Positions 19,474-40,680 of a DNA stretch of 64,000 bases are shown here, one piece after another. Made by a program: the position numbers and the translations under genes. A model generated the notes under the pieces. That model did not search any database. It was not told the origin of the DNA and saw nothing but the letters and a program-made list of their open reading frames with translations. Source of the stretch: an uncultured Clostridia bacterium (GTDB taxonomy: Bacteria; Bacillota; Clostridia; Christensenellales; Borkfalkiaceae). The stretch covers positions 6,755 to 70,754 of the forward strand of contig CAZQFP010000001.1 in assembly GCA_964592605.1 (NCBI GenBank), written 5' to 3'. Positions within the stretch are counted from its first letter, which is position 1, and the number at the start of each line of letters is the position of its first letter.

Positions 19474-19572
19474 AACTACTCCGAAATTTATTGTTTACGG
19501 AAAAATTCCGCTTGTGTGCTTTTTAAACCTAACGGGAAAGCGGTGCGGTAGCACCACTTCCCCTTGTTTCAG

Positions 19573-22500
19573 TTAGTTTTTAGTTATTGTCATAGGATAT
19601 TCGCTGGTTCCATAGCTCATCTCAGCCGTGTAGGTATTACCCTGCGCGTCGGTAAGCGTGAACACGAATACGAGTTTATCGACGTCTGGTTCGGGAATGG
19701 TCGTATAGCTGTAAACGGTGCCGTCGGAGCAGATAATCTGTCCCACGCCGTTGAAGTCGTAAGTTACGCCTTCATTTTCCGCGTCGTTGGAATGCACTTT
19801 ATAGAACTTGTCGGGTTTTATAAGCTCGAACCAGTTGCCGTTTAATGCGTACGCGCCGTCCTGCTTACCACTCAACGGATTGAGAACGTATTTGACAACG
19901 CCCTGCAATCTGAGCTCCACAACGCCGAATGCGTTTTCCGAATAGTCGTACTCGGTCATTTTGCCTTCAAGCCCTATAACGGTTGCCTTACCACTGCCTA
20001 CGGTGCTTACTATAAAGCCGTCCAAAACAATCTTCTGACCGTCTTCCGCCACGTACTCGCCGGCAAATTTATCAAGCGCACCCGCCTTTATGCAACGGGT
20101 GAAGCCGTAGCGCGTACTGGGTGCTTGGCAGAGAGCTATTTCCTGCTGTTTACCCGTTACTATGCTGAGTTTAATAAGGTACAGCGTTTTGCCGCCGTAT
20201 TTAAACGACATAAGGTTTTCGGACTCATAAACGAACGTTACGTTTTCACCGCAGTAAGTGCCGCTTGCCGTGCTGTCGGAACCGACTTCGCCTACGGTTA
20301 TACTGCCGCCCAAGCCGCCGATTGTCCAGCTACCCGTAAACACGTTGACTATTTTAAGGCTTGCGTCGGGTGAGCCGCTCTTTTTAAGAACGTAACCGTT
20401 TGCGTTTTTAACTATCGTTTCGCCGCTTGTAAGCGTTACGGTATTGCCGTCTGCGCTTACAGTATAGCCGCACTCGGTGGTGTTTGCACCGTTTGTTACG
20501 GTAGCCTTACCGCCGCCCGAAAGCAAGCCGTAGCCGTTAAACGCGTAAACGTTGCCGCCGTTATCGGAAAGTTTAACGTTGCGCCATGTATCGTAGTGGT
20601 GCATTACGAAGTTATCTCCGCCGCCCGTTACCGTTACAGTATCGTTTGCGGGGCTGTATACTATGCTGTAAGTAGTACCGTTGTATTCGAACGAACCGTT
20701 GAAGCCAGTGCCATCAACGGTATAGGGTATATATTCGCCGGAAATTATCACCGTACCTTCCACGGCAATTCCCGTAGCCTGGCTTGCGCTGAGTGAATAT
20801 GCGCCGAAGCCGTCGAACGTTACGATACCGAACTTCGTGCTAAGCCATTCGCCCCTGAAATTATCGTACAGACAGAACGCCGCATTCGACAACGCACCGC
20901 CGTCTTTAATTGAATAAATTTGACCCGAAAGCGTAAGTTTTTGCAAATCGAAACCGAGCTGAGCATACATATCGCTGTCAAGGAAAATGCGCACGTAGCT
21001 GTTTTCGCCCTGCTTAACGTTTTCGTACTTCATTTCCATAGGTTGCGTAAGATAGGTGCTTGAAAGCGTTACCGTTCCGTAGCCGTCCTTGCCTATGCCG
21101 TTGAATTTAAGAGTTATCGATTCTTCGTAGAACATCTTCCACTCGCCCACGTTGCTGTTTTCGCGGTAGAAGGTCTTTTGAACGGAATTTGCAGTTACTT
21201 GCAGATAGCCGTTTTCGTCAAACTGTGCACTGCCGCAAACCGCATTACTGCCGTTATATAGCGTAACTACGCCGCCTGCAACGGTATAAGTGCCGTTCGA
21301 AGTCGAAACTTCTTTTACGGAATTTGTGCCGCCGACTTTTTCGTATTCAAAACTTGTGTATTTCCAGGTGTTTTTGCCGTCGAATTCGTAAAGTTCGTGC
21401 GCGGAAGCCGCGGTTTCCCAAACGCCTTCGAATGCGTCGTATGCCGTATACGTCGTACCGTTTACCGTAACGGTATCGGTGCCGAACGTAGCCGCAATAC
21501 CGTTTATTAAAAGGTTGGTGCCGTTGAACATATAGGTTACCGAATTGCCGTTATACTCTGCAGTACCGTCGGAGTTGAGAACCAAATTTTGATTACCCGA
21601 ATAGTACTTGCCGTAAGTTAAACCTTCAATCTTCTTTACGCCGTTGAGCGTTGCCGTCTGCGTATAGCTCTGGTTGTCGTACATTTTTATAAGGTTGCCG
21701 TCAACCGTTGCCTTGCCCGCATACAAAGCTCCGCCCGTAACAAACAGGGGACATCCGTAAAGTGTGATATACGTGCCGTCGTAAGCGTAATACGAAAGGT
21801 TCTGTGCCGCGCCGCTTGCGTACAACAACGAGCCGTCCGCTTTAAGTTCGATATAAGTTCCGCTACCTTGAACGGAAGTTTTAACGTAGTACACGCCTGC
21901 AATCTGGGAATAATCCGCAAACCCGACGTAGAGTTCTTCGCCCGTAGGCACGTACGCCGCGGGCGCCTTATAGTAATTTTCGCCGTCCTTCAAATAATAG
22001 CCGTACGATAATTCACCGTTCTTTGCTATATATTCTTCAACGCCGTTCGAAGCATACCAAAGCGACAGCGGCTGATATTTATTGAGTGTAAATGAAGCGG
22101 CATTGCCGTTCGCGCCGTTCATTTCAAGCACGTTCAAAGTTACGCTCTTTACTGCGCTTATACCCTGCTTAGCCACGGGATATGTGCCGCCGAACGTCCA
22201 ATCGGCTTCACTGAAGCCGAGAGTATTTTTAAGCGCTTCCGCACTTGTAAAATCAACACCCGAATTTTTTGCAAAGTTATTTAAAGCAAGGCCGGCAACC
22301 GATTCAACTCTGCCGCTGTCAGCGGGCCGTATTCCGCCGACTATATCGCCCCTGTGCGCATAGCTTGCACCTGCCGTTGCGTTTGCGTTAACCGTTGCAA
22401 CCGAGAAACAGTCCTTAACTATGCTGTCGCTATATACGTAACCGGCAACGCCGCCGGCATACGAACTTAAGCTGTCCGCAGTGCTGCCCGCAACAAAACT

Positions 22501-24000
22501 CGTACGGTTGTACGCGCTTACTGAAGAAGCCGAGCAATAACTCTTTTGAAGAGATGCGAAACTGTCAAGGAAACCGACGAGTCCGCCAGCATAAATAGCG
22601 CCGTTAATACTGCCGGAAGCCGCACTGTTAATTACCATTGCGGGAGCAGTTTCCGACATACCGCTCATTGCGCCGACAATTCCGCCCGCCGCAAACAGTC
22701 TGCCCGATCTGCCGTTGATGGCAACGTTAGACATACAGCCGCTAATCTGGGAAACGTGCTTATACTGTTCGTCAGCGTAATACGCCTGGTCAAAACCGAC
22801 AAGTCCGCCCGCATAGCCGCCTTCGCTCGAGTCGGCGTCCACGGTTATTTTTCCGCTTGCGGTGCAACCGCTGATTTCGGTACCCATTGCGTAGCCGATA
22901 AGTCCGCCCGCATAGAAACCGCTACGGTATTTTGCGGCGTCAACCACTATTTCGTAGTTCTCAAGATTTAAGTCCTTGATTACGCAGGGTGTCAACGAAA
23001 TTTCGCCGGTTTTCGTACGCTCGAGATTAGGACTTGTTCTGCCGAAAAGTCCGATGTATTTAACGAAAACGTCCGTAAAGCCGGACTGTTCTATTAAAGT
23101 GTCTTCCAACACGAAGTTGCTTATTTTGTGCCCGTTGCCAAGGAAAGTTCCGCTGAAATATGCAGTTTCCGTAGTTCCGTCGCCGATAATGTAAAGCTGT
23201 TCGCCCTTCATATCGATGTCGTTTTCAAGGCTGTAATACGCGCCGTTGTAAAGACCGCCATAGTAACTGTCGTTCACGATATCGGCAAGCAGGTACAAAT
23301 CCATTGCTTCCCTTATACGGTAGGGATTCTCGTAAGAGCCGTCGCCGTCTTCTCTTTGTCCGAAGTTTTTCTTAAGTTCAAGACCGGTAACGGTTATGTT
23401 CGTGTCGCGTATGGGCGAGATAGAATAAACGGTTTTGCCGCCTATTTCTTCCCCGATAAGCACCATATCGTTTGCAAGTACGGTGTAGGGATTTTCCTTA
23501 TCAACGTCGTAGTAGACGCTTATATCGATAGTGAACTTGATTTCGGTGCCCGATTCAACGTTAAGATTGTCAAGCTCGTTGCCGTCCAAATCCAAATAAT
23601 TAAGGCGGTTTTCAACCAAAGTATTGTCCGCGCCGGTGAATATTTTCAGGAAGGAAACTTTGTAAGAGCCGGACGTTGAAACGCCGCCAACCGTTACGTT
23701 GCTGTCTTCTTTCATTACGAACGAATAGGTGCCGTCAGCGTTCTTTGTAAGCGTTTGACCGTTGACTTTAACCTGCGCATCGTCCTTGCCCTGCAACTGG
23801 TCGCTGAATTCCGCGGTAAACACAACGGTGTAGCCGTCCTTTACTTCCGCACCGCTTTCAATTCCGTTAAAGTCGAAAGTTACTCCTTCGATATTTTCGT
23901 AAGTGAGTTTATAATACGCAGGGGTACCACAGCCGACAAGCGCGCAAATCGCGCAGGCTATGCTTATCATTCCCAATAAAACAGTTAAAAACTTTTTCAT
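19573..24000 (-). CDS. giant surface lipoprotein with GLUG-motif repeats (1475 aa)
   Basis: Lipobox ALVGC-GT. Repeated GGL(I/V)G motifs (YAGGLIGYAMG, GYAGGLVGF, AAGGIVGA, YAGGLVGF, YAGGVAGY) are typical of GLUG-motif domains. The remainder is Gly/Tyr/Thr-rich and looks beta-rich. I prefer the ATG at 24000 (GGAAGG RBS 7 nt upstream) over the TTG at 24003. Confidence 0.7.
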   Translation of the reverse strand: MKKFLTVLLGMISIACAICALVGCGTPAYYKLTYENIEGVTFDFNGIESGAEVKDGYTVVFTAEFSDQLQGKDDAQVKVNGQTLTKNADGTYSFVMKEDSNVTVGGVSTSGSYKVSFLKIFTGADNTLVENRLNYLDLDGNELDNLNVESGTEIKFTIDISVYYDVDKENPYTVLANDMVLIGEEIGGKTVYSISPIRDTNITVTGLELKKNFGQREDGDGSYENPYRIREAMDLYLLADIVNDSYYGGLYNGAYYSLENDIDMKGEQLYIIGDGTTETAYFSGTFLGNGHKISNFVLEDTLIEQSGFTDVFVKYIGLFGRTSPNLERTKTGEISLTPCVIKDLNLENYEIVVDAAKYRSGFYAGGLIGYAMGTEISGCTASGKITVDADSSEGGYAGGLVGFDQAYYADEQYKHVSQISGCMSNVAINGRSGRLFAAGGIVGAMSGMSETAPAMVINSAASGSINGAIYAGGLVGFLDSFASLQKSYCSASSVSAYNRTSFVAGSTADSLSSYAGGVAGYVYSDSIVKDCFSVATVNANATAGASYAHRGDIVGGIRPADSGRVESVAGLALNNFAKNSGVDFTSAEALKNTLGFSEADWTFGGTYPVAKQGISAVKSVTLNVLEMNGANGNAASFTLNKYQPLSLWYASNGVEEYIAKNGELSYGYYLKDGENYYKAPAAYVPTGEELYVGFADYSQIAGVYYVKTSVQGSGTYIELKADGSLLYASGAAQNLSYYAYDGTYITLYGCPLFVTGGALYAGKATVDGNLIKMYDNQSYTQTATLNGVKKIEGLTYGKYYSGNQNLVLNSDGTAEYNGNSVTYMFNGTNLLINGIAATFGTDTVTVNGTTYTAYDAFEGVWETAASAHELYEFDGKNTWKYTSFEYEKVGGTNSVKEVSTSNGTYTVAGGVVTLYNGSNAVCGSAQFDENGYLQVTANSVQKTFYRENSNVGEWKMFYEESITLKFNGIGKDGYGTVTLSSTYLTQPMEMKYENVKQGENSYVRIFLDSDMYAQLGFDLQKLTLSGQIYSIKDGGALSNAAFCLYDNFRGEWLSTKFGIVTFDGFGAYSLSASQATGIAVEGTVIISGEYIPYTVDGTGFNGSFEYNGTTYSIVYSPANDTVTVTGGGDNFVMHHYDTWRNVKLSDNGGNVYAFNGYGLLSGGGKATVTNGANTTECGYTVSADGNTVTLTSGETIVKNANGYVLKKSGSPDASLKIVNVFTGSWTIGGLGGSITVGEVGSDSTASGTYCGENVTFVYESENLMSFKYGGKTLYLIKLSIVTGKQQEIALCQAPSTRYGFTRCIKAGALDKFAGEYVAEDGQKIVLDGFIVSTVGSGKATVIGLEGKMTEYDYSENAFGVVELRLQGVVKYVLNPLSGKQDGAYALNGNWFELIKPDKFYKVHSNDAENEGVTYDFNGVGQIICSDGTVYSYTTIPEPDVDKLVFVFTLTDAQGNTYTAEMSYGTSEYPMTITKN

Positions 24001-24090
24001 CAAAATACCTTCCTGTGAACGCGTTTACAGGCTCCTTTTTTCAAGGTTCAGCCGCAAACAAGCTATATGTCCCATAATAATAGCCTTAAC

Positions 24091-24119: not shown

Positions 24120-24425
24120 CTGATTTCCAATCGTTTAATAATTATAAGTATGCGCATTTTTATAGCGGTAATAAGCACAGATTATACCCCAATTAACGTA
24201 TATCCTTCGTTTTTGTCGTTTTCCGCAATAAAACAAGCAATTTTTTGTCAAAAACGGATAAAAACGCATCAGTTTTAAAACTTTTTATAAGAAAATCTTT
24301 TTAAAATAATATGCCGTCCGCAAAATAATCGTAATATTTTTGTATGCATAATTTTTGTATAATTTTATATTTTAACCATTGCAACAGGCTAAAAAACTGT
24401 TTTTTTGTCCTTTACTAAGAAAAGC

Positions 24426-24452
24426 GGCGCAAGCGTTTAAAGCGCTTGCGCC
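24426..24452. terminator. second (outer) hairpin closing array A; bidirectional terminator-like
   Basis: GGCGCAAGCG / CGCTTGCGCC 10-bp stem, followed by T-rich runs on both strands. It occupies the same position as hairpin 32091-32117 of array B but has an unrelated sequence. Confidence 0.6.
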
Positions 24453-24467
24453 TGATTTTAATTTTAA

Positions 24468-24739
24468 GCCCCCGAAAGGGGGCGACCTGCCCGCTTAGAA
24501 ATAAGCTAATGCGGGTAAAAGCGCGGCTATTCCACGCCGTTACCGCAAGGACGGTCCAGTTCGCCATGCATCAAAGCAAGGCAGGACAAAGTTCCCTTCA
24601 ACTCATAACAATTCTGTTACGTATTCCTTGAAATACGCAATACCGGTAAACCTGCTTTTTTCTTGTCATACTGAGCCTTGGCGAAGTATCTCGTGAGATT
24701 CTTCACTACGTTCAGAATGACATTCACAGGTGAGTTCAT
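24468..24739 (-). ncRNA. conserved structured RNA-like segment ('scaffold') terminating cassette array A; class not recognised
   Basis: Reverse complement of 31861-32072 with roughly 85% identity by eye outside indels. It shares the same series of hairpins, with compensatory or loop-restricted differences. It ends (minus strand) in GCCCCC-UUUC-GGGGGC plus a U/A-rich tract (24468-24483). It carries a 73-nt insertion in the first hairpin loop. Confidence 0.55.
24664..24722. repeat. MITE-like imperfect palindrome (TGTCATxCTGAG...GAAG-ATCTC / GAGATTCTTC...CAGAATGACA) inserted in scaffold A
   Basis: Left arm TGTCATACTGAGCCTTGGCGAAGTATCTC and right arm GAGATTCTTCACTACGTTCAGAATGACA are inverted copies. 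Absent from the otherwise collinear scaffold B. Same family as 42170-42248 and the half-copies listed below. Confidence 0.7.
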
Positions 24740-24911
24740 GCGCGGGCCGCACCGAATACCAACGGAAATCATCGCCCTGGCTAGTAGCACCAGACTGAGA
24801 AACTGCAAGTGTAAGGTTTGTATGTTCGTGGTAGCCGGAGCGCAGCGGTGCGTAAAAATAAAAAAACTTTGCCCTTTTGCACATTTTAACATATTAAGCC
24901 GTATGTTACAA
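24740..24911 (-). repeat. cassette unit A1 (promoter + leader box + invariant 18-mer + variable core + invariant 14-mer)
   Basis: Minus strand: TTGTAA (24911-24906), 17 nt, TAAAAT (24888-24883), AGGGCAAA box, T-run, GCACCGCTGCGCTCCGGC (24852-24834), 80-nt core (24833-24754), GGTGCGGCCCGCGC (24753-24740). Confidence 0.75.
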
Positions 24912-24926
24912 CTAAACCGAGTTGGA

Positions 24927-25096
24927 GCGCGGGCCGCACCGTGTACCAGCGGTCAGACCTACCATTGCCCATACCGCCATCGACGTAGAGAATGTAAGCA
25001 TTTCTCGTGTCGCCGTAGGCGCCGGAGCGCAGCGGTGCGAAAAATAAAACTTTTGCCCTATATGCGCATTTTAACATATTAAGTTGGTCGTTGCAA
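24927..25096 (-). repeat. cassette unit A2
   Basis: Minus strand: TTGCAA (25096-25091), 17 nt, TAAAAT (25073-25068), AGGGCAAA, T-run, 18-mer (25039-25021), 80-nt core (25020-24941), 14-mer (24940-24927). Confidence 0.75.
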
Positions 25097-25111
25097 CTAA
25101 CCTGAGTTGGA

Positions 25112-25260
25112 GCGCGGGCCGCACCGATAGCCAATCAGTAACGTCGTGCCCGTAAAGATAGCCCGAAACACGGAAACTGAAACACTGCCGCGTGCCGCCA
25201 CGGTCGCCGGAGCGCAGCGGTGCGTAAAATAAAAAACTTTACCCTTCTACGAGTGTTTAA
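25112..25260 (-). repeat. cassette unit A3 (promoter-proximal unit, degenerate -10)
   Basis: Minus strand: TTAAAC instead of TAAAAT (25260-25255), AGGGTAAA, T-run, 18-mer (25224-25206), 80-nt core (25205-25126), 14-mer (25125-25112). Confidence 0.65.
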
Positions 25261-25448
25261 CCCAAATAGAATACACCTAAAAGCAATGTTTTTGCCTATC
25301 TCGGCGTTAAACTCGCTTGTCGTAGCACGCAGGCACGGCAAGAGGCGTTTTGGGTGTATTGACCGTGATTTTTCCGTAAAAATGTATTTTATATGGAGTT
25401 ATACACTCGTCCTAATTATAGCAAAGGGCAATTTTATTTGCAAACTTT

Positions 25449-25745
25449 TTATACGTTGGATTTTAATGCACTTTTCTGTTTTTTGTAGGTGGAATTGGCT
25501 TCGTCAATAAGATTTTTATTGGCGGGCTTAGGTTCGTAGTAGCCGCGTGTGTTCATCTGCGTATATATCGAATACTGGTTTTCGGCAACGCCCAAAAGAT
25601 TTGTAGAAAAATTTTTGCGCATAGATTTGGTGCTACCTTCAAACAGCGCGGTCGTATAAAGAGCCATAAGCTGTTTTTCGGATTCAAGCATATCCTGAAG
25701 CGCGTCCTTTTCGTTTAACATGCAATCGCTTTTTGTAAGTTTCAT
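25449..25745 (-). CDS. spore coat protein, CotF-like (coat F domain)
   Basis: 98 aa. The pattern LNEKDALQDMLESEKQLMALYTTALFEGSTKSMRKNF...AENQYSIY matches my memory of the coat-F-domain family. The start follows 2 nt after the upstream small gene. Confidence 0.65.
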   Translation of the reverse strand: MKLTKSDCMLNEKDALQDMLESEKQLMALYTTALFEGSTKSMRKNFSTNLLGVAENQYSIYTQMNTRGYYEPKPANKNLIDEANSTYKKQKSALKSNV

Positions 25746-25747
25746 TT

Positions 25748-25936
25748 TCAGCCCCCCAAAACGTTTAAAAGCGCGTTATAACGCTGTTCGTGTTCGTCCG
25801 CAATTTTCGTCATACATTCGGCAAGTTCCATATCGGTAAGTGTTTTCGAATACGCCCTTGCCTTTTTGCAGATAAGACCTTCGGCGCAAAGCGCGTCGGA
25901 GATGAGTTCAAGTTCCTTTGAAGTTATGTCCTGCAT
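25748..25936 (-). CDS. small hypothetical protein (62 aa), co-transcribed with the CotF-like gene
   Basis: GGAGG RBS 7 nt upstream of the ATG. Helical-looking sequence with conserved-looking Cys/Glu positions. No function recognised. Confidence 0.55.
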   Translation of the reverse strand: MQDITSKELELISDALCAEGLICKKARAYSKTLTDMELAECMTKIADEHEQRYNALLNVLGG

Positions 25937-26004
25937 AAAAAATACCTCCGCATAATGTTTTGACTTATGCGAAGGTTTTTATTCGGAAATTGAATTTATT
26001 TAGT

Positions 26005-26835
26005 TTACTGCTTTTTTTCGCCGCCGAATATATCGGCTTCGGATACGCTGTGCGCCGAAATTATCTGATAGTACGGGTCGGAAGAAAAATCGCGCTGTTT
26101 TGTGTACTCGCCGCCGAGAGCTTCGATAGCGTATTTAAGTTCCTGATACTCGATAAACGGAATATTCTCTTCGTCTATTTTGTCTAAAAGATATTTCAGC
26201 GCGCGCTCGTCGCCGTAGGACGCAAGATAGCTTGCGTGCATGGGAACGTTTTCTATATCGCCGCGGAATTCGCTGAGCAAAATTTCGAAAACCTTGTCGT
26301 TTTTTACTACCGAACGCGACATTATTTCAAGCATATATTCCCTGTCAACGCCCTTAGAATAATTTTCAAGCGCTTCACTAATTACAAGGTCGGCTTTTTC
26401 CTTTATGAAGTCCACGCACCTGTTTTTCATATCTTCGTCGTCGGTGGAAACGAGTATGGTCATATACTTTTTTATAGCCTTGTCGTCAGCGCCTATTAAA
26501 TTCATTGCATACTCGCGCTCGGCTTCCGTGCCGTCTAAAAGCGGCATAAGTTTTTCCACTTCGGCTTTGCTCTCTATTGCTTCGCACAAGAATTCGGAAA
26601 CGGGGATTTCCTGCTTAATATGTGCCCGCAAACACTTAATAAGCTCGTCGCCGTCCATTTCGCCGTAGTACTCGCGCGGGGTTTTTCCAAGCGACTTTAT
26701 AGTGGTGTCGCCGAAGCGTTGATAAAGCTGGGGAATTACGTCTTCCCATTCGCTTTCGTTGTATTTTTCGGAATTCTTCTTGACGTATTCGGCGAGCTTT
26801 TCGTCGAACATACCGTCGAAATCGTACAGTTTCAT
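26005..26835 (-). CDS. hypothetical protein (276 aa), helical-repeat-like
   Basis: I prefer the start at ATG 26835 (MKLYDFDGMF...). It has a GGAGAA RBS and an ATGA overlap with the stop of the upstream TPR gene. The ORF-track start at 26949 would add an Arg-rich 38-aa extension overlapping that gene by 118 nt. Confidence 0.6.
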   Translation of the reverse strand: MKLYDFDGMFDEKLAEYVKKNSEKYNESEWEDVIPQLYQRFGDTTIKSLGKTPREYYGEMDGDELIKCLRAHIKQEIPVSEFLCEAIESKAEVEKLMPLLDGTEAEREYAMNLIGADDKAIKKYMTILVSTDDEDMKNRCVDFIKEKADLVISEALENYSKGVDREYMLEIMSRSVVKNDKVFEILLSEFRGDIENVPMHASYLASYGDERALKYLLDKIDEENIPFIEYQELKYAIEALGGEYTKQRDFSSDPYYQIISAHSVSEADIFGGEKKQ

Positions 26836-28490
26836 ATTTTCTCCGTAATTTTTTGAACGCGCTCTTCTTCTATATCGAAAAACGCGCATACTCCGCCTTC
26901 TGCAACGACGGCTTCCTTTACGCCCGACCGCATAAATATTGCGGCGCAAAGCGCGTCCACGTCCTTAGCCGCATCCAGCCGCCCATCGTTTTTCAACTCG
27001 TCGTAAATGCTTTCCGCGGCAATCGCAAACGCCTTGCCGTGCTCGTCGTCGAGTATCGAAAAATGCGCAATGAGCCGCGCATATGCCTGAACGAAGCACT
27101 TTTTTTTGTTTTTGCCGAGTGCAAGCTGTTGCATTGTAACGCGCTTATAAACGTTGCATATAACCACGCCGAAGCTATCAAAACGGTTGCGCTCCGCAAG
27201 CGCGGTTAAAACGTCTATTTTAAGTTGGTCTTCCAAAAACGCGTTTAAAAGAATATCGCGCACGATACCGTCAAGTTCCGCCTTCACTGCAACCTGCGCC
27301 GCAAGGTATTGCAACTCGCCGCCGCCCTTGCCTTCGCACTCGTCAAAGCACCACAGCACGCACGACGACAAATCCAGCTCGGACGAAAGTTTTTGCGCCG
27401 CACCCTGCGAAAGCCGCATATATGCCGCAAGCATTTTAAGTGAAGATTCGCGTATGCGTTGCGGAAGTCTGTAAAAATAGCTTAACTCGGCTATATCACC
27501 GCTCTTAACCATAGCGCGCGCCGCATTATAGTAAAACCGCGCGGTTACCGCTTCGGGGTAAATTGTAACTATATCGTCGAAAGCCGAAAAGCTGTCTTCG
27601 TACTTTCCGCAGTTGAACGCCGACACCGCCTTAAAGTACAAAACGGTTAAATCGTATGCGTAATCTTCCGAAAGTTTGCAAAACATCGAGTACGCTTCGG
27701 CGTGCAGTTTGTTCTCGCAACATACCGTGGCTATTTTATAAATTTCGTCGGGGTTGTCAAGGTCGAGTGAAAGCAACTTTTTTGCAAGTTGCAACGCTTC
27801 GTCGCTTTTACCCGCTTCGGTCTTTACCGCGGCAAGCGTAGTAAGCGCCTGAACGTCGTCGGGACGCTTTTTCAAAATGTTTTCGCACTCGGCTTCGGCT
27901 TCTTCAATTTTGTCGGAAATAATATTGCACATCGCAATATAGTTGCGGGCGGACGAATATTTTTCGTTGCCTTCGCCCACCTTTGCAAACTCTTCCGCCG
28001 CCGCTTCGTACTCGCCGTTTTTCATGCGCGAAATGCCTTCCGAAATAATGTCCGAACAGTCTGCAAGCGCGGGCGGGTATACGAATTTTAAGGGATTTTT
28101 ACTTGTGGTTAAAAAATCGCGTGCTATCTCTTCGCGCATTTCGCCGTCTATCTCGTTGCACTCGAAAAGCAGCTTATTGTAGTAGTAAGCCGAAAAGTGT
28201 TCCGCGCCCAAATTCATATAGCTTACCGCAAGCCCTTCGTAGCATTCGGACATATCGCTCGGCGCGGCAAAGTCCATATACCTGAACCAGCCGTTAACGC
28301 ACTTTTCGTACAGCCCCAAATCGTCGAAAATTTCGGCGTAAAGCATATACGAATCTTCGTCGTTAAAGCCCAGTTGCGCGTTCTTGTTCAGCATTTTAAG
28401 CGCGCCTATAAAGTTGTGGTCTTCGACCATGTCGGCGGCCATGCCTATAAGCCTGTCCGCGCCAAGGTCTATCTTCAATGTTTTAGCCAT
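26832..28490 (-). CDS. TPR-repeat protein (552 aa)
   Basis: Multiple 34-aa-like helical repeats with small and aromatic positions (e.g. ALQLAKKLLSLDLDNPDEIY, AYSMFCKLSEDYAYD, YYNKLLFE). Function not assignable. Confidence 0.55.
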   Translation of the reverse strand: MAKTLKIDLGADRLIGMAADMVEDHNFIGALKMLNKNAQLGFNDEDSYMLYAEIFDDLGLYEKCVNGWFRYMDFAAPSDMSECYEGLAVSYMNLGAEHFSAYYYNKLLFECNEIDGEMREEIARDFLTTSKNPLKFVYPPALADCSDIISEGISRMKNGEYEAAAEEFAKVGEGNEKYSSARNYIAMCNIISDKIEEAEAECENILKKRPDDVQALTTLAAVKTEAGKSDEALQLAKKLLSLDLDNPDEIYKIATVCCENKLHAEAYSMFCKLSEDYAYDLTVLYFKAVSAFNCGKYEDSFSAFDDIVTIYPEAVTARFYYNAARAMVKSGDIAELSYFYRLPQRIRESSLKMLAAYMRLSQGAAQKLSSELDLSSCVLWCFDECEGKGGGELQYLAAQVAVKAELDGIVRDILLNAFLEDQLKIDVLTALAERNRFDSFGVVICNVYKRVTMQQLALGKNKKKCFVQAYARLIAHFSILDDEHGKAFAIAAESIYDELKNDGRLDAAKDVDALCAAIFMRSGVKEAVVAEGGVCAFFDIEEERVQKITEKI

Positions 28491-28510
28491 GTTATCGTAA
28501 GATATTATTT

Positions 28511-29329
28511 TTAAAAGAGTTTTAAAACGTCTTCTTCAAAAAAATCGTAATCGGTGTTGCAATAATGGCAGTGAACGCTCACTTTTCCGCGTTCGACTAC
28601 TATATTCAAAAGCTCCGCCTTGCCAAGGGGAAGTATTACCCCTTCTATTTTTTTGCGCGAACAGTTGCATTTATATTCGGGAAACGAAAGATACGAGCCA
28701 TATTTTAAAGTTTCTTCGGCAAAGTACCCGTTAATAATTCCTTCCGCGCCCAGTTTTGAAAGCACGCTAACCACGTCGGAAAAGTTCTGCATAGCGTCTT
28801 CGGCTTTGCGCATATTCTCTTCCTTAGCGCCTGGCATAAGCTGCATAACCACGCCGCCCGCGCAAACGCATTTTCCGCCCTGCATTTTTACGCCTATCGC
28901 AACGGCGGTATCAATCTGCTCGCTCTTAAAAAAATACTGCATTAAATTTTCGGAAACGTCGCAAGACTTCAACTCGCACGTTCCAGTAAACGGTCTGAAA
29001 AAGCCGTCGTCCTTAATTACGGTCATAGTGCCGCCGGCAAGTCCGCCGTCCGCTCCGTCTATATACCCGCGTATATGCCCCGAACTGTCGCCCGAAACGC
29101 TTACGGTTGCGCTTCCGTCGCCTGACTTTACAGTCAGCGAAACGGCTCCCTTTTCACTCTTCAAACAGCCTGCCATATAAGCGCATGCAGTAAGCATACC
29201 GCCCAGTATTTCCGCGCCCTTTTCGTCGAGATTGTGTATTTTTATAGCGTCGTTTACCATGTCCGTCGTTTCCAGTACGGAAAGCGAAACGTCCATTCCG
29301 TAAACAAGCGCCTTATACAGTTTGTTCAT
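28511..29329 (-). CDS. hslO: Hsp33 family redox-regulated chaperone
   Basis: 272 aa, the typical Hsp33 length, with the C-terminal zinc centre C-x-C (YKCNCSRKKIE) ... C-x-x-C (VHCHYCNTDYDF). Confidence 0.8.
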   Translation of the reverse strand: MNKLYKALVYGMDVSLSVLETTDMVNDAIKIHNLDEKGAEILGGMLTACAYMAGCLKSEKGAVSLTVKSGDGSATVSVSGDSSGHIRGYIDGADGGLAGGTMTVIKDDGFFRPFTGTCELKSCDVSENLMQYFFKSEQIDTAVAIGVKMQGGKCVCAGGVVMQLMPGAKEENMRKAEDAMQNFSDVVSVLSKLGAEGIINGYFAEETLKYGSYLSFPEYKCNCSRKKIEGVILPLGKAELLNIVVERGKVSVHCHYCNTDYDFFEEDVLKLF

Positions 29330-29397
29330 TATATGATTACCCTAACCTTAAATTCAAGCGGCAATTTTTGCATAAATCAATACGCACCGGCAACGTT

Positions 29398-30141
29398 TTA
29401 ATCTTTGCGGCAGATAAAGTTAATTCTCTGTTCCTTGCTACCGCCAAGGTGCCCTTCGGTTTGCGCCGTAAAGCCTGCCGCGTTCAAAGCCGCCAAAATT
29501 TCGTTTTCCCCGTATATATATTGCGTTTGACGCTCGTCCGAGCGCGTGTAATCTCCGTCCGTCCTGCGCGAAAACACGGTAATTTCCATATCAACACAGT
29601 CTTCTTTCAGCGTGTTAAACCACATGTACGAAAGCTCTTCCCTGTCTTCGCAAAATACGTTTGAACCGATGATATGTTTGAGTTTATACTCCGAACTTAT
29701 ATCGAATATAAACGCGCCGCCCTTTTTCAAACTTGCGTAAATCCTTTTAAAAGTTTGGCACAGCTTGTCTTTGGGAACGTAATTTATACAGTCGTTTACG
29801 GCGGTTATAAAATCGCACTTAAAGTCGAGCTTCAGCTTTGTTACGTCCTGCAATAAAAACTGCGCCGCAACGCCTTCGCTCCTTGCAATTTCCACAGCCC
29901 TATTCAGCATTTGCGGCGATATATCTGCGCCCCAAACGTCAAAACCCGCCTTATAGAGCGCGCGAGTAAAATAGCCGTTTCCGCACCCTATATCAACTCC
30001 GCGCGCGCCGCTTTTTAAGCCCAACGCGCGTAGCGTTTCAATTAAATACTGCGACCATTTTTCATAGCCGCAGTCGTCGTTTAAATATTCAAAAACCGAG
30101 CCGAGCGCGGAATACGCTCCCGAATACTCTTCATTTTTCAT
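29398..30141 (-). CDS. class I SAM-dependent methyltransferase
   Basis: Motif I VDIGCGNGYFT, motif post-I GADISPQML, and motif II-like FITAVNDCINY. ATGA overlap with the upstream gene. Confidence 0.75.
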   Translation of the reverse strand: MKNEEYSGAYSALGSVFEYLNDDCGYEKWSQYLIETLRALGLKSGARGVDIGCGNGYFTRALYKAGFDVWGADISPQMLNRAVEIARSEGVAAQFLLQDVTKLKLDFKCDFITAVNDCINYVPKDKLCQTFKRIYASLKKGGAFIFDISSEYKLKHIIGSNVFCEDREELSYMWFNTLKEDCVDMEITVFSRRTDGDYTRSDERQTQYIYGENEILAALNAAGFTAQTEGHLGGSKEQRINFICRKD

Positions 30142-31388
30142 TTCAATAAATTGTCCGAACTTATCTTTTTAGCCTTTTTGCCTTTCTTGCCGGTGGACTG
30201 CAACGCCTTTTCACGTTCGGCAAACAGCTTGTTGTACTCCACGTAAACGGGATCGTTTTTGTGTTCTTCTTCATAGCCGCTTATATCTGCCGAAAGTTTG
30301 GCTCTGTCCGCATCGGCGCGTGCAAGGTCTGCGCGGTTAAAAGTGAGCGAAGGAGTTTTAACAGCCGCTTCCGCCGCAATGGGCATTATAGGGCGGGCAA
30401 TCAGCTCGCTTTTGCCTGCGGCAAGCAGTTCCATTGCCGCTTTTTTGTCGCTTTCCTGTTTTTCAATAGCAAGTTCCTTTTCGCTCTTTTTGGAATTTGC
30501 ATCTTCCTGCGCCGCTTTTATGTTGGGCGTTACGTACAAATCGAAGCCCCACTGCGTGAACGAAAGCCAGCACATAAGCATAAACGAGAAGCCTATGAAT
30601 ATGAAAATTATCATAGCTATCGTTTCCGCAAAGCCGCCTATAAGATAAATCCATATGGGAATAAGCGAGAAACCCGCCATAAGCACGGTCTGCAAGGGTG
30701 TGCCCAAAATCATAACGAATGCGTTTTTGAAAAGCTGACCGAACTTAACGCGGTAACTGTTACCTACCGCAAACAGCCAGCCGCAGTAAACGCCCACGAT
30801 TACCGTGGCGATTATTACGAAAATCTGCGCCGTAATTGCGCCGGCTACGTTCCCGCCGGTTGCCGCAACAACGTCCTTCCAGTCGCCGATAACAACTGAT
30901 GCGAATACGAAAATCAAGAGAATAGTAACAGGCAAAACCGTTGAAAAATAACCGACTTTTATGCCGTGGAAAAAGTTTTTCAGCTTAAATTCGCCGTGCG
31001 TGTAAAGCATTTTGCGTATACAGTAAGTCGCACCAGATATGCCTATGGAAGCAATAAAGCCGGCAACCAGCAAAAGCGAATAGAACAAAAGGTCGGCGGA
31101 AAGTCTTACGCTTTCACTCCAGCCCTGAATATTGGGGTCGAAGGTTATAGCTATACTGGAATTGCCGGGACCAAGCGTTTCCATACCGCTTATATACGCA
31201 CCGCGGAAAACCATTACGGCGACGCCGGGAACTACCGTTATAAGAACAAAAATGTTCAGCAAAATAAGTTTAAAGAAATTAGACTTAAATATGGACCAAG
31301 TTTCGCCCCATCTGCCGCGAGTGGCAGGTTTTCTTATAAAGTCGTCGGCAAGTTCGTTGCCTTCGAGACCGCTTACATTTATAGCCAT
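30138..31388 (-). CDS. polytopic membrane protein (YesL/DUF624-like N-terminal domain) with Lys/Glu/Ala-rich C-terminal tail
   Basis: AGGGGAA RBS. The N-terminal WSIFKSNFFKLILLNIFVLITVVPG segment and about 6 TM helices resemble the DUF624 family as I remember it. The last ~130 aa are charged and coiled-coil-like. Confidence 0.45.
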   Translation of the reverse strand: MAINVSGLEGNELADDFIRKPATRGRWGETWSIFKSNFFKLILLNIFVLITVVPGVAVMVFRGAYISGMETLGPGNSSIAITFDPNIQGWSESVRLSADLLFYSLLLVAGFIASIGISGATYCIRKMLYTHGEFKLKNFFHGIKVGYFSTVLPVTILLIFVFASVVIGDWKDVVAATGGNVAGAITAQIFVIIATVIVGVYCGWLFAVGNSYRVKFGQLFKNAFVMILGTPLQTVLMAGFSLIPIWIYLIGGFAETIAMIIFIFIGFSFMLMCWLSFTQWGFDLYVTPNIKAAQEDANSKKSEKELAIEKQESDKKAAMELLAAGKSELIARPIMPIAAEAAVKTPSLTFNRADLARADADRAKLSADISGYEEEHKNDPVYVEYNKLFAEREKALQSTGKKGKKAKKISSDNLLK

Positions 31389-31514
31389 AAAAATTCCCCT
31401 GAATGTAGGATTGCTTGTATTATTCTATCATATAATAACGAATAATTCAACTGTTTTTTAAGTCATTTACGCATTTGTTTAAGCCGAAAAATGCTACCGC
31501 AAACCCCAAAACGC

Positions 31515-31682
31515 TTGCAAGTTTTTTATTGCACCGTTAAAATGCGCTTATAGGGCAAAAGTTTTTTATTTTCGCACCGCTGCGCTCCTGCTCAGACTAC
31601 GGTACAAGCGTTGGCTTTACTCTGTCAGATGCCGGTCTCAGTTACACTTTGGTAGTCGATTGGCTAGCGGTGCGGCCCGCGC
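31515..31682 (+). repeat. cassette unit B1
   Basis: TTGCAA (31515-31520), 17 nt, TAAAAT (31538-31543), AGGGCAAA, T-run, GCACCGCTGCGCTCCTGC (31574-31591, one G>T), 77-nt core (31592-31668), GGTGCGGCCCGCGC (31669-31682). The promoter spacer contains GTTTTTTATTGCACCG, a vestige of a further unit. Confidence 0.75.
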
Positions 31683-31692
31683 TTCAACTTAA

Positions 31693-31860
31693 TTGCTTTT
31701 TTATATCTCACATGCTAAAATGTGCGAAAGGGCAAACGTTTTTATTTTGCACCGCTGCGCTCCGGCTACTTTTACTATGCTGGCAATGCTTACAACCTTA
31801 CGGTAGGTGGTAGCCTTAACACTGACATCACTGCTTATTGGTTCTCGGTGCGGCCCGCGC
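31693..31860 (+). repeat. cassette unit B2
   Basis: TTGCTT (31693-31698), 17 nt, TAAAAT (31716-31721), AGGGCAAA, T-run, 18-mer (31749-31766), 80-nt core (31767-31846), 14-mer (31847-31860). Confidence 0.75.
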
Positions 31861-32072
31861 ATGAACTCACCTGCAAAAACAGGTTTACCCGTATTGCGTA
31901 TTTCAAGGAATACGTAACAGAAACGTTACGAGTTGAAGGGAACTTTGTCCTGCCTTGCAAAGTTATTGCATGGCGAACTTGACCGTCCTTGCGGTAACGG
32001 CGCAAAACAAGTTGCACTTTTATTCGCATTAGCTTTTACGTAAAGCGGGCAGGTCGCCCCCCTTACGGGGGC
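31861..32072 (+). ncRNA. conserved structured RNA-like segment ('scaffold') terminating cassette array B; class not recognised
   Basis: Hairpins: ACCTG-CAAAAA-CAGGT; CGTATT-TCAAGG-AATACG; GTAAC-AGAAAC-GTTAC; GCCTTGC-loop-GCATGGC; GCAA-AACAAG-TTGC; GCTTT-TACGT-AAAGC. Possible long-range pairing TCCTGCC/GGCAGG. Terminator GCCCCC(C)-TTAC-GGGGGC plus TTAAATTT (32056-32080). Confidence 0.55.
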
Positions 32073-32090
32073 TTAAATTTAAAAATAAAA

Positions 32091-32117
32091 GCGGCGTGTG
32101 CTTAAAGCTCACGCCGC
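32091..32117. terminator. second (outer) hairpin closing array B; also the terminator of the convergent gene 32135..33004
   Basis: GCGGCGTG / CACGCCGC stem. TTTGTT follows on the plus strand and TTTTATTTTT on the minus strand. It lies 18 nt from the stop of the minus-strand membrane-protein gene. Confidence 0.7.
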
Positions 32118-32134
32118 TTTGTTCATTTAAAAAA

Positions 32135-39619: not shown

Positions 39620-40680
39620 CTCTTTTCTCTCCTTTTAAGCGCCCATGCACAGAGCGGAATTATTATTGCAAATATCAGCATTGCAATCCACATCCATTTT
39701 CCGAAGAAGGTGGCAACCGCCGAAAAGCTGTTGTTGAAAACCAAGGTAAGCGCAAAAATTATTGCGCTCATTGCAAGCGACCACACCATTGAATTTTTGT
39801 ACCCCGTGCAGTCTGAAATGCAGTACACCGAAAACTGAATATTGAGTAGCACGCTGAACAGCATAACGATTTCCATAACGTACAAGAATATCAAATCTAT
39901 TCTTCCTATAACTTCTATCGCGGGGAAGTGCACAGCTATCTGCGTAATTGCAAACTGGCGTATGGGAGCAATGTTTCCGTAAATTGCAACAAACGTTGCA
40001 AGGAATACAAGCACCAGAAGCGCGCCGCCGACGTATGAAAGCGTTATTTTTGCGGCGTCTCCCTTTTTGTATTTGAAATGCCCCATCATCATAAGTAGCC
40101 AGCAAGGCTCTACAAAATGGAAAACCGTACTATATGTGCCGCCCAACACTCCGGTAGCCGGCGTTTTTAATACGGGCAGAAGGTTGGAAAAATCGGCTTT
40201 TCCGAGCGACATCGAAAGTATTGCGATAAACGAAACTACAAACAGCGGAAAGCAGAAATCCGCACATCTGCCCACGTTTCCCAAGTCCTTGCTTCCCGCA
40301 TACACGGAAAAGAAGAAAAAGGGCAAAAACGCCATAAGCGAAGGTATGGTATCGTAAAAAATGGACTGCACGTACAGCTTTTGTTCAAGCACCGTAAATA
40401 TGGTGCACGCAATGAAAAATAACGCGAAAACGCCGTATATTATGCGGGCAACCACGTTTCCGAACGTGTTTTCAAGCAGTCCGAAAAACGTTTTGTCAGT
40501 GCGCGAACAAAGATAGCTCACCGCCCATATTACAATTCCCGTAACCACAAAATTTATCGCGGCGGAAAACAGCAAATCTCTTCCGCTTATCAGGCTTAGC
40601 GCCGTAGGGTAAGTTATAACTTTGGTAACCACCGTATACGCCAGCATTATAAAACATATCTGTCTTACCGAAATTTTCAT
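39616..40680 (-). CDS. spore germination receptor subunit B (GerAB-type APC-family permease)
   Basis: 354 aa with 10 TM helices. N-terminal KISVRQICFIMLAYTVV is typical of the spore permease family. 4-nt overlaps with both neighbours. Confidence 0.8.
   Translation of the reverse strand: MKISVRQICFIMLAYTVVTKVITYPTALSLISGRDLLFSAAINFVVTGIVIWAVSYLCSRTDKTFFGLLENTFGNVVARIIYGVFALFFIACTIFTVLEQKLYVQSIFYDTIPSLMAFLPFFFFSVYAGSKDLGNVGRCADFCFPLFVVSFIAILSMSLGKADFSNLLPVLKTPATGVLGGTYSTVFHFVEPCWLLMMMGHFKYKKGDAAKITLSYVGGALLVLVFLATFVAIYGNIAPIRQFAITQIAVHFPAIEVIGRIDLIFLYVMEIVMLFSVLLNIQFSVYCISDCTGYKNSMVWSLAMSAIIFALTLVFNNSFSAVATFFGKWMWIAMLIFAIIIPLCAWALKRREKR

What the first reader, a model, noticed from the sequence alone, without database searches (positions are those of the whole stretch)
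24424..32117. Two inverted arrays of promoter-bearing, start-less cassettes, each capped by a ~210-nt structured RNA: a system I cannot place in any known class
Seen in the sequence:
1. 24424-25260 (read on the minus strand) and 31515-32117 (plus strand) are reverse-complement versions of one architecture: 3 and 2 tandem units respectively, then a conserved ~210-nt segment, then two hairpins.
2. Each unit reads as follows: TTG(C/T)(A/T)(A/T), 17 nt, TAAAAT, G(T/C)GC, an AGGGCAAA box, an 11-13-nt T-run, the invariant 18-mer GCACCGCTGCGCTCCGGC, 69-72 nt of mutually unrelated sequence, TGG-NNN-NCG, and the invariant 14-mer GGTGCGGCCCGCGC.
3. Unit periods are 187, 185 and 175 nt.
4. I recognised no cas, reverse-transcriptase, recombinase or transposase gene anywhere in the 64 kb.

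Inference on what it is not:
- Not a canonical CRISPR. The repeat is ~100 bp and contains a promoter, and the 'spacer' is ~80 bp.
- Not a classical DGR pair. The cores differ at all base types, not only at adenines.
- Not a tandem-repeat protein. The unit periods are not multiples of 3, and a TAA inside each -10 box closes the frame.

Working hypotheses:
- (a) Silent donor cassettes for gene conversion into an expression locus elsewhere (vls/pilS logic), with the invariant flanks acting as recombination handles.
- (b) Template RNAs for a reverse transcriptase encoded elsewhere. The almost pure G/C 14-mer at the 3' edge of each core and the structured RNA after the last core recall the DGR IMH element and the TR-spacer RNA.
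- (c) A new multi-copy RNA family with a hypervariable module.
Basis: partly seen in the sequence, partly recalled or inferred. Interest (0 to 1): 0.9.

Follow-up and report, generated by a model that had tools for sequence, protein, structure and literature searches.

The report
Satellite arrays of DGR template repeats
The two inverted arrays are libraries of non-coding "template" cassettes, each array ending in the structured RNA that a diversity-generating retroelement (DGR) reverse transcriptase uses to rewrite part of a surface-protein gene, and here they stand alone, with the enzyme and the target gene outside these 64 kb.

Summary
In detail: 3 + 2 tandem units with invariant flanks and unrelated cores. 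Each array ends in a conserved ~210-nt RNA and a terminator.

These are DGR template repeats (TRs) followed by the DGR spacer (Sp) RNA.

- **Coding constraint.** Every core is an open, start-less frame encoding the C-terminal ~40 residues of a DUF6273-type lectin domain (APLRSG…W.SVRPA). Across 14 cassettes there are 0 stops in 377 codons.
- **Link to DGR enzymes.** The same unit-plus-scaffold architecture lies directly after a DGR reverse transcriptase (RT) and bAvd in related Clostridia contigs.
- **Proof of template use.** In those contigs a variable repeat (VR) in a giant surface protein differs from one array unit only at adenines. Two related strains used different units, with 0 non-A mismatches each.
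- **RNA pairing.** The "AGGGCAAA + T-run" box pairs over 13 bp with the scaffold and covaries. This matches the published cPRT-Stop duplex.

Not shown for this window: the RT, Avd and the target. None lies in the 64 kb, and no matching VR was found in the databases.

Not found described in the literature searched: tandem, individually promoted alternative TRs sharing one Sp RNA, and RT-less satellite arrays whose cores have diverged to saturation.

Verdict: new variant of a known kind.

The parts
25415..25443 (-). Strong sigma-70-like promoter (TTGCAA-17-TATAAT with TG) upstream of array 1. It is the likely driver of unit A1 and of read-through of the whole array.
25233..25245 (-). Unit A1 5' box AGGGTAAAGTTTT, the upstream strand of the cPRT-Stop-like duplex.
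   Evidence: 13 of 13 positions pair with scaffold 24583-24595.
25112..25223 (-). Template repeat A1. It comprises the 18-mer (25223..25206), an 81-nt core and the 14-mer (25125..25112). It reads APLRSGDRGGTRQCFSFRVSGYLYGHDVTDWLSVRPA and is followed by AACTCA (25108..25103).
25068..25096 (-). Promoter of unit A2 (TTGCAA-17-TAAAAT, with TG).
25047..25059 (-). Unit A2 5' box AGGGCAAAAGTTT.
   Evidence: 11 of 13 positions pair without a gap. By reading, a 1-nt bulge would restore the rest.
24927..25038 (-). Template repeat A2 (APLRSGAYGDTRNAYILYVDGGMGNGRSDRWYTVRPA).
24883..24911 (-). Promoter of unit A3 (TTGTAA-17-TAAAAT, with TG). The predicted start falls at the first bases of the box.
24863..24875 (-). 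Unit A3 5' box AGGGCAAAGTTTT.
   Evidence: 13 of 13 positions pair.
24740..24851 (-). Template repeat A3, the terminal unit of array 1 (APLRSGYHEHTNLTLAVSQSGATSQGDDFRWYSVRPA).
24455..24739 (-). Sp-like scaffold RNA of array 1. In order it contains: the TR-proximal site AACTCA; hairpins; the primer-side strand TGAGTT (24605..24600) followed by GAA; the Stop strand GGAACTTTGTCCT (24595..24583); a stem-loop followed by GAA; a long stem; and the GCCCCC hairpin.
   Evidence: The order of elements matches the Bordetella-phage Sp RNA.
24652..24727 (-). MITE-like palindromic insertion in the loop of the first scaffold hairpin. It is not part of the functional RNA core.
   Evidence: Absent from array 2. 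Single copy in the window. The same family is inserted in the scaffolds of L004, L013 and L015.
24418..24452 (-). Intrinsic terminator of array 1.
31515..31543 (+). Promoter of unit B1 (TTGCAA-17-TAAAAT).
31552..31564 (+). Unit B1 5' box AGGGCAAAAGTTT.
31574..31682 (+). Template repeat B1 (APLRSCSDYGTSVGFTLSDAGLSYTLVVDWLAVRPA). It is one codon shorter than the others and has one mismatch in the 18-mer. It is followed by AACTTA.
31693..31721 (+). Promoter-like site of unit B2 (TTGCTT-17-TAAAAT).
   Evidence: Read from the sequence. It is below the threshold of the scan.
31729..31741 (+). Unit B2 5' box AGGGCAAACGTTT.
   Evidence: The long-range helix with 31935-31951 appears in both the MFE and the centroid fold.
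31749..31860 (+). Template repeat B2, the terminal unit of array 2 (APLRSGYFYYAGNAYNLTVGGSLNTDITAYWFSVRPA).
31861..32085 (+). Sp-like scaffold RNA of array 2. It contains the primer-side strand GAGTT (31930..31934) followed by GAA, and the Stop strand GGAACTTTGTCCT (31939..31951).
32091..32128 (+). Terminator hairpin (GCGGCGTG...CACGCCGC) followed by TTTGTTCATTT.
   Evidence: Read from the sequence and predicted as a hairpin.

Best explanation
Each array is a transcription unit that carries several alternative DGR template repeats and ends in one DGR spacer (Sp) RNA.

**What each unit contains.**
- A promoter whose predicted start lies at a 13-nt box (AGGGCAAAGUUUU).
- A template repeat (TR) bounded by an invariant 5' homology (the 18-mer) and a G/C-rich 3' element (the 14-mer, IMH-like).
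- A short AACUC site just after the TR.

**How it most likely works.**
1. Transcripts run through to the terminal scaffold.
2. In the scaffold, the strand GAGUU-GAA can pair with the AACUC site after any unit, forming a template:primer duplex with a priming adenosine.
3. The adjacent strand GGAACUUUGUCCU pairs with that unit's 5' box, forming the cPRT-Stop duplex.
4. An RT-Avd complex encoded elsewhere in the genome would then copy that one TR into adenine-mutagenised cDNA.
5. The invariant flanks direct the cDNA into a single VR at the C-terminal end of a DUF6273 lectin-like domain of a surface protein.
6. The array therefore offers whole-cassette choice on top of adenine mutagenesis.

**Shown here:** the anatomy, the coding constraint, homology with RT-linked arrays, the covarying box:scaffold duplex, and, in related loci, VRs written from different internal units.

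**Inferred:** transcription, action of the RT in trans, the existence of a VR in this genome, and the way a unit is selected.
For: **Coding signature of the cores.**
- All five cores read as (F/Y)(F/Y)APLRSG…W.(S/T/A)VRPA in one frame, and their lengths differ only by multiples of 3.
- 14 cassettes of this type have 0 stops in 377 in-frame codons, against 9 and 33 in the other two frames (P about 3e-8).
- Third codon positions are C/T in 74% of codons, against 55% in genes of the window (p = 6e-6).
- Only 15% of adenines are at codon position 3, against 26% in window genes (p = 0.012).

**Homologous arrays next to DGR genes.** The RT has the IGNQTSQ and YMDD motifs and a Pfam RVT_1 match; the neighbouring protein matches bAvd.
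- L006.
- L010.
- L007.
- L017, with about 11 units and one scaffold.
- L025.

**True TR/VR relations in those loci.**
- The L010 VR differs from internal unit 3 at 17 A and 2 non-A positions.
- The L017 VR differs from unit 6 at 16 A and 0 non-A positions.
- The L018 VR (same RT protein) differs from unit 1 at 15 A and 0 non-A positions.
- All other units differ from these VRs at 11-24 non-A positions.
- The VR lies at the C-terminal end of DUF6273, a known DGR target domain (PMC11792537, PMC10743442).

**Box:scaffold duplex.**
- 90.7% of cells pair, against 31-64% when the partner is slid.
- 6 of 13 pairs change on both sides, and 0 of 500 shuffles reach the observed covariation score (table).
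- The helix is predicted in the MFE and centroid folds.
- It matches the avd:Sp 'cPRT Stop' duplex: 11 bp in the Bordetella phage, a mean of 13 bp in 207 DGRs, followed by a stem-loop and adenosines (bioRxiv 10.1101/2023.10.23.563531).

**Primer-side pairing.** GAGUU pairs with AACUC at every window unit. The pair covaries in L006 (GAGUG:CACUC versus GAGCG:CGCUC) (by reading).
Against: - No RT or Avd lies in the 64 kb.
- No VR or DUF6273 domain lies in the window.
- No protein carrying the APLRSG…VRPA flanks turned up, apart from spurious ORFs called across arrays. This held for a word-indexed search of 5.8 billion proteins and an exhaustive profile search of 1.84 billion representatives.
- The RTs seen in assemblies that also hold arrays of this type (L021; possibly L024) serve TRs with different flanks.
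- The cores are less adenine-rich (20%) than L010 TRs (35%), although similar to L007 TRs (20%).
- Some arrays of this type (L012, L013, L015) have two mismatches in the middle of the box:scaffold duplex.
- Transcription has not been measured.
Confidence: 0.8

Rival explanations
1. The arrays are orphaned relics. They would be left over from a DGR whose RT, Avd and target were lost or were never in this genome, and they persist without function.
For: - No RT, Avd or VR was found in the window.
- No cognate VR protein was found in large protein collections.
- The arrays lie among housekeeping genes.
- A MITE has inserted into one scaffold.
Against: - The flanks are invariant in all 5 units here and in at least 9 units at four other loci.
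- All 14 cassettes keep an open frame.
- The promoters, the 13-bp box:scaffold pairing and the scaffold helices are kept. Compensatory changes are seen between this window and L004/L013.
- The MITEs sit only in hairpin loops.
- The arrays are identical between samples.
Confidence: 0.12
2. The cassettes are silent donors for RecA-dependent gene conversion into an expression site, following vls/pilS logic. The invariant flanks would act as recombination handles, with no reverse transcription involved.
For: - Invariant flanks surround diverse, in-frame, start-less cores.
- Related strains differ by replacement of a whole cassette.
Against: - DNA donors would not need a promoter for each unit, nor a conserved terminal structured RNA with a covarying long-range helix to each unit's 5' end.
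- Homologous arrays are physically linked to a DGR RT and Avd.
- The VRs in those loci differ from their template only at adenines. That pattern is the signature of mutagenic retrohoming, not of gene conversion.
Confidence: 0.04
3. The arrays encode a stand-alone family of regulatory or guide RNAs with a hypervariable module, unrelated to protein diversification.
For: - Promoters, a terminator and a structured scaffold are present.
- There is no Rfam match.
Against: - The variable module is under protein-coding constraint and is homologous to the DUF6273 C-terminus.
- The scaffold is homologous to RNAs that lie next to DGR RTs.
Confidence: 0.03

Closest known systems
Bordetella phage BPP-1 DGR (avd-TR-Sp-brt; mtd VR)
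   Same: - A template repeat with a G/C-rich 3' element.
- A downstream structured Sp RNA with the same order of elements: stem-loop(s), a primer strand ending in adenosines, 2-3 nt, the Stop-duplex strand, a small stem-loop followed by adenosines, then a long stem.
- The upstream strand of the Stop duplex lies just 5' of the TR (searches compared).
   Different: - BPP-1 has one TR, embedded between avd and brt and transcribed with them.
- Here there are 2-3 different TRs per array (up to about 11 in relatives).
- Each TR has its own promoter and its own Stop strand, and all share one Sp RNA.
- No RT, Avd or VR lies nearby.
- The upstream Stop strand is non-coding rather than the end of avd.
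RT-linked multi-TR arrays of Clostridia found here (L010, L017/L018, L006, L007, L025; RT proteins P0015, P0056, P0002, P0016, P0117)
   Same: - The same unit anatomy: promoter, AGGGC box, TR of the same length class (81-nt core), CGGCCCGCGC element, ACUC site.
- The same scaffold core, GAAGGG…UCCUGCC.
- The same target domain type (WLRSG…VRPA, DUF6273).
   Different: - Those arrays lie directly after the RT and bAvd and before a giant DUF6273 surface protein.
- Their cores are 61-75% identical on average (L007, L017, L010) and, in L010 and L017, Asn-codon-rich.
- The window arrays are detached from any RT.
- The window cores are no more alike than shuffled sequence.
- The window 5' flank reads APLRSG rather than WLRSG.
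DGRs with remote targets or more than one TR, noted in surveys (Treponema denticola, Stenotrophomonas SKA14)
   Same: - DGR components can act in trans over long distances (PMC5758913).
- A minority of DGRs are listed with more than one TR (PMC6642488).
   Different: - In those cases the remote element is the VR, not the TR-Sp module.
- The multiple TRs are described as each having its own VRs.
- I found no description of tandem alternative TRs for one VR, of promoters for each TR, or of RT-less TR-Sp satellites.
Silent-cassette antigenic variation (Borrelia vls, Neisseria pilS)
   Same: Functional logic only: a library of promoter-distal, start-less alternative segments with shared flanks that can replace one segment of an expressed surface protein.
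   Different: Transfer in this case is via RNA and reverse transcription with adenine mutagenesis, as shown in related loci, and not via DNA gene conversion. Each cassette is also transcribed.
CRISPR arrays
   Same: A repeat-and-variable-segment layout with a single terminal structured element.
   Different: - No cas genes are present.
- The repeat is about 100 nt long and contains a promoter.
- The variable segments encode protein and have a fixed length.

Membership tests
Diversity-generating retroelement (DGR) | A DGR-clade reverse transcriptase (I/LGxxxSQ motif) encoded with the element | tested here: not met
   - tblastn with the L006 RT finds nothing in the window (best E = 1.3).
- No RVT_1 match among about 40 ORFs.
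- The feature is met in homologous loci (IGNQTSQ and YMDD in the L006 RT).
- Whether an RT exists elsewhere in this genome cannot be tested with these tools.
Diversity-generating retroelement (DGR) | An accessory protein (Avd or HRDC type) | tested here: not met
   - No Avd match in the window.
- bAvd is adjacent to the RT in L006, L007, L010, L017, L019, L021 and L025.
Diversity-generating retroelement (DGR) | A TR/VR pair that differs essentially only at template adenines | tested here: inconclusive
   - No VR was found in the window or in the protein collections.
- In homologous arrays the relation holds: 16 A and 0 non-A differences (L017), 15 and 0 (L018), 17 and 2 (L010), 16 and 1 (L019).
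Diversity-generating retroelement (DGR) | A TR that carries coding information for the target, with adenines placed at codon positions 1-2 | tested here: met
   - The frame is open in 14 of 14 cassettes.
- 85% of adenines are at codon positions 1-2, and third positions are C/T in 74% of codons.
- The cassette peptides share the LRSG…VRPA pattern with the VRs of L010 and L021, which lie at the C-terminal end of a DUF6273 domain.
Diversity-generating retroelement (DGR) | A G/C-rich element at the 3' end of the TR (IMH*-like) | tested here: met
   GGTGCGGCCCGCGC is invariant in all 5 units. The L010 VR shares CGGCCCGCGC with its TRs.
Diversity-generating retroelement (DGR) | An Sp RNA downstream of the TR that forms a duplex with sequence upstream of the TR (cPRT Stop), plus a primer strand that pairs with the 3' end of the TR | tested here: met
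   - A 13-bp box:scaffold helix with covariation, also predicted in the fold.
- GAGUU:AACUC pairing at each unit.
- The definition comes from bioRxiv 10.1101/2023.10.23.563531.
- Priming itself is not testable with these tools.
CRISPR-Cas | Short direct repeats of 23-50 nt, spacers, and cas genes | tested here: not met
   The repeat unit is about 100 nt and contains a promoter. No cas genes were found.
Gene-conversion cassette systems (vls/pilS type) | An expression locus that shares the cassette flanks, with DNA-level copying without base bias | tested here: not met
   No expression site was found in the window or the databases. In homologous systems the copies show adenine-only changes.
Rfam RNA families | A match to a curated covariance model | tested here: not met
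   No match at gathering thresholds across the 64 kb. Only chance-level matches appeared at E up to 10.

The most novel reading that the evidence does not exclude
The window shows one half of a two-tier diversification system. In this reading, a genome keeps several detached, individually transcribed libraries of alternative DGR templates, each with its own Sp RNA. One RT-Avd encoded elsewhere serves all of them in trans.

The RT could then replace a whole binding loop of a DUF6273 surface protein with any of many unrelated cassettes, and mutagenise its adenines in the same event. This would be a prokaryotic, RNA-templated analogue of V-segment choice followed by hypermutation.

The saturated divergence of the cores, their VR-like NNY codon make-up and the cassette replacement seen between strains (L017 versus L018) further allow that the libraries are themselves renewed by retrohoming into template slots.
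Probability: 0.45. Interest if true: 0.85.

Novelty: new variant of a known kind. Interest (0 to 1): 0.68.

Why it matters
DGRs are understood as one invariant template that diversifies only the positions encoded by adenines.

**Wider sequence space.** Arrays of alternative templates that share homing flanks enlarge the reachable sequence space to whole-loop replacement. Related strains were seen to have written the same VR from different array units.

**Mechanism made testable.** Each template carries its own promoter and its own strand of the cPRT-Stop duplex, while one Sp RNA serves them all. This gives a concrete, testable rule for how an RT picks a template. It is also a natural design for multiplexed, programmable DGR mutagenesis tools.

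**Consequence for surveys.** RT-less TR-Sp satellites would be missed by all RT-anchored DGR finders, so the true reach of DGRs in Clostridia genomes may be underestimated.

Tried and rejected
**Searches that found nothing useful.**
- Rfam at gathering and permissive thresholds gave nothing meaningful.
- The phage collection had no match by blastn.
- Pfam and NCBIfam gave no match to the cassette peptides alone.
- The exact flank pattern had 0 matches in GTDB species genomes and viral contigs. Its one match in JGI metagenomes was a chance hit in a high-GC membrane-protein gene.

**Looking for the VR or target of the APLRSG type.**
- A six-frame regular-expression scan and a cassette HMM on the window found only the five cassettes.
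- Word-indexed searches with one ORF and with a 21-cassette profile found nothing else.
- An exhaustive profile search of 1.84 billion representatives returned mainly spurious ORFs called across other arrays, plus a few long proteins, none of which carries the APLRSG flank.

**Looking for the RT of this lineage.**
- L021 comes from the same assembly as L004, and L024 from a run series similar to those holding the window's Hsp33.
- Both carry TRs with other flanks.

**Ideas considered and dropped.**
- tmRNA-like tagging. The frames have no consistent stop and the RNA has no tRNA-like end. ARAGORN was not run.
- Small proteins. The offset between ATG/GTG and the frame differs from unit to unit because the T-run varies in length.
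- DRT2-like rolling-circle products. The units differ from each other.
- Ongoing hypermutation of the arrays themselves. The arrays are identical between samples.

**Literature.** Nine searches, plus targeted reading of DGR surveys, found no description of tandem TR arrays. The library is limited to open-access papers and bioRxiv, so prior description cannot be excluded.

Full report
**1.

Read on the minus strand, 25260-24424 holds three tandem units (A1-A3). Read on the plus strand, 31515-32117 holds two (B1, B2). Each array is followed by a conserved RNA-like segment, a G/C hairpin and a terminator hairpin with a T-rich tail; the scan calls it for array 1, while for array 2 it is read from the sequence and predicted in the fold.

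The 18-mer and the 14-mer occur five times each, and only in the arrays. Core identity between units averages 0.52, against 0.49 for shuffled cores.

Sigma-70-like sites are called for A2, A3 and B1. B2 reads TTGCTT-17-TAAAAT. A1's own site is poor, but a strong promoter lies further upstream at 25443..25415.

Genes between and around the arrays are housekeeping or sporulation genes: Hsp33, a methyltransferase, a TPR protein, CotF, the gerA operon and MetRS. There is no RT, Avd, cas, recombinase or transposase.

**2. The cores are coding information.**

The distance from 18-mer to 14-mer is 98, 98, 98, 95 and 98 nt. In one frame every unit reads (F/Y)(F/Y)APLRSG, about 27 residues, then W.(S/T/A)VRPA(L/H)(Q/E)L.

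The frame has no consistent start, because the T-run varies in length. It is nevertheless open in all 14 cassettes of this type that I collected: 0 stops in 377 codons, against 9 and 33 in the other frames (P about 3e-8).

Third codon positions are C/T in 74% of codons, against 55% in window genes (p = 6e-6). Only 15% of adenines are at position 3, against 26% (p = 0.012). Placing adenines at codon positions 1-2 is the make-up expected of DGR templates (established knowledge of DGR TRs).

**3. Relatives link the arrays to a DGR.**

A spurious ORF called across a related array led to L004, which has the same flanks and scaffold. The invariant scaffold 20-mer then found L006, a Christensenella MAG. 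There an RT (RVT_1; IGNQTSQ and YMDD motifs) and bAvd are followed directly by at least 9 such units and three scaffolds.

RT homologues at 55-65% identity are numerous in Clostridia. Their contigs show several layouts:
- L010: RT-Avd, four promoter-bearing units, one scaffold.
- L017: RT-Avd, about eleven units, one scaffold.
- L007: RT-Avd, then several TR-scaffold modules on the opposite strand among MITEs.
- L025: RT-Avd, then complete modules repeated.
- L019 and L021: the classical single TR.

Most arrays are followed by a giant surface protein.

**4. The units are true templates, including internal ones.**

The VR lies at the C-terminal end of a DUF6273 domain. That is a lectin-like domain already known as a DGR target (PMC11792537, PMC10743442).

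- The L010 VR differs from unit 3 of 4 at 17 A and 2 non-A positions.
- The L017 VR differs from unit 6 at 16 A and 0 non-A positions.
- In L018, which has the same RT protein, the VR differs from unit 1 at 15 A and 0 non-A positions.
- Every other unit differs from these VRs at 11-24 non-A positions.

So one VR is written from different array units in related strains. The units used lie up to about 1.85 kb upstream of the only scaffold. L017 and L018 also differ by replacement of one whole cassette.

**5. The scaffold is an Sp RNA and the box is its partner.**

The 13 nt that start at AGGGC, at the predicted 5' end of each unit's transcript, pair with the scaffold's GGAACUUUGUCCU. I tested 24 distinct box/scaffold combinations from nine sources (the window and eight related loci):
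- 90.7% of cells pair, against 31-64% when the partner is slid.
- 6 of 13 pairs change on both sides.
- No shuffle out of 500 reaches the observed covariation score.

Within single loci (L006, L025) each box matches its own downstream scaffold. The helix appears in both the MFE and the centroid fold of B2 plus scaffold.

This matches the avd:Sp 'cPRT Stop' duplex of the Bordetella-phage DGR. That duplex is 11 bp in the phage and averages 13 bp in 207 DGRs, and it is followed by a stem-loop and adenosines (bioRxiv 10.1101/2023.10.23.563531).

Three nucleotides upstream of the Stop strand, GAGUU can pair with the AACUC that follows every unit's 14-mer. This pairing covaries in L006. It corresponds to the template:primer duplex, with the priming adenosine placed a few nucleotides before the Stop strand.

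The order of the remaining elements also matches the phage RNA: TR-proximal stem-loops before the primer strand, and a long stem after the adenosines.

**6. Mechanism proposed.**

Nested transcripts start at each box and run to the scaffold. The two adjacent scaffold strands clamp the two ends of one TR, which is then copied by an RT-Avd supplied in trans. The invariant flanks home the cDNA to a single VR.

Transcription, action in trans and the rule for choosing a unit are inferred. The rest is shown here or in homologous loci.

**7. What is missing for this window.**

No RT, Avd, DUF6273 domain or VR lies in the 64 kb. No protein with the APLRSG…VRPA flanks was found in the protein collections.

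Arrays of exactly this type occur without an RT at four or more other chromosomal contexts in related assemblies: L004, L012, L013/L014 and L015/L016. RTs from the same or similar samples serve TRs with other flanks.

The orphan-relic reading therefore cannot be excluded. It fits poorly, however, with the invariant flanks, the open frames, the retained promoters, the retained pairing and the compensatory changes in the scaffold.

**8. Novelty.**

Surveys note remote VRs and occasional DGRs with more than one TR (PMC5758913, PMC6642488). In the searchable literature I found no description of the following:
- tandem, individually promoted alternative TRs for one VR;
- a shared Sp RNA with a Stop strand for each unit;
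- RT-less TR-Sp satellites.

I therefore file the finding as a new variant of a known kind, not a new class.

Noticed in passing
window 24652-24727 (minus strand): A ~75-nt palindromic MITE-like element (GTCATTCTGAACGTAGTGAAGAATC…CTCAGTATGACA) is inserted in the loop of the first scaffold hairpin of array 1 and is absent from array 2. It is a single copy in the window. The same family is inserted in scaffold loops of L004, L013 and L015.
   Followed up: partly
window 25415-25443 (minus strand): A strong TTGCAA-17-TATAAT promoter with an extended TG lies about 170 nt upstream of unit A1, just after the cotF-like gene.
   Followed up: partly
window 11944-24003 (minus strand): Two giant surface proteins lie directly downstream of array 1. 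One is a 1476-aa lipoprotein with GLUG motifs; the other is a 2509-aa protein with subtilase, PA, BspA-LRR and Big_2 domains. Their position mirrors the DUF6273 targets in RT-linked loci, but neither has a DUF6273 domain or a VR.
   Followed up: yes
L017 12560-12760 compared with L018: These two assemblies share the same RT protein, yet array unit 6 is replaced by a different cassette and leader. Their VRs derive from different units (unit 6 in L017, unit 1 in L018).
   Followed up: yes
L012 1854-2582; L013 9921-10034: A second 5'-flank class occurs among arrays of this type. GCAC---TGCGCTCCGGC (ALRSG) appears in place of GCACCGCTGCGCTCCGGC (APLRSG), which may point to two VR classes.
   Followed up: no
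L007 11640-16900: Dozens of copies of a second MITE family (CTGTCACCTCGAGCGAAGTCGAGAGGTCTC…) are interleaved with the TR-scaffold modules. A small GIY-YIG gene lies between the array and the 1877-aa target-like gene.
   Followed up: no
L010 11737-11850: TR1 of this bona fide array carries an in-frame TAA, and one L007 TR also has an in-frame stop. All 14 APLRSG-type cassettes are free of stops.
   Followed up: partly
window 38339-42104, 25449-25745, 55822-57294: A gerA-type germination operon, a CotF-domain protein and a SipL-domain protein place the window on the chromosome of a spore-forming member of the Clostridia. Contigs from three public sequencing runs (L001-L003) are 100% identical to the window.
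   Followed up: partly
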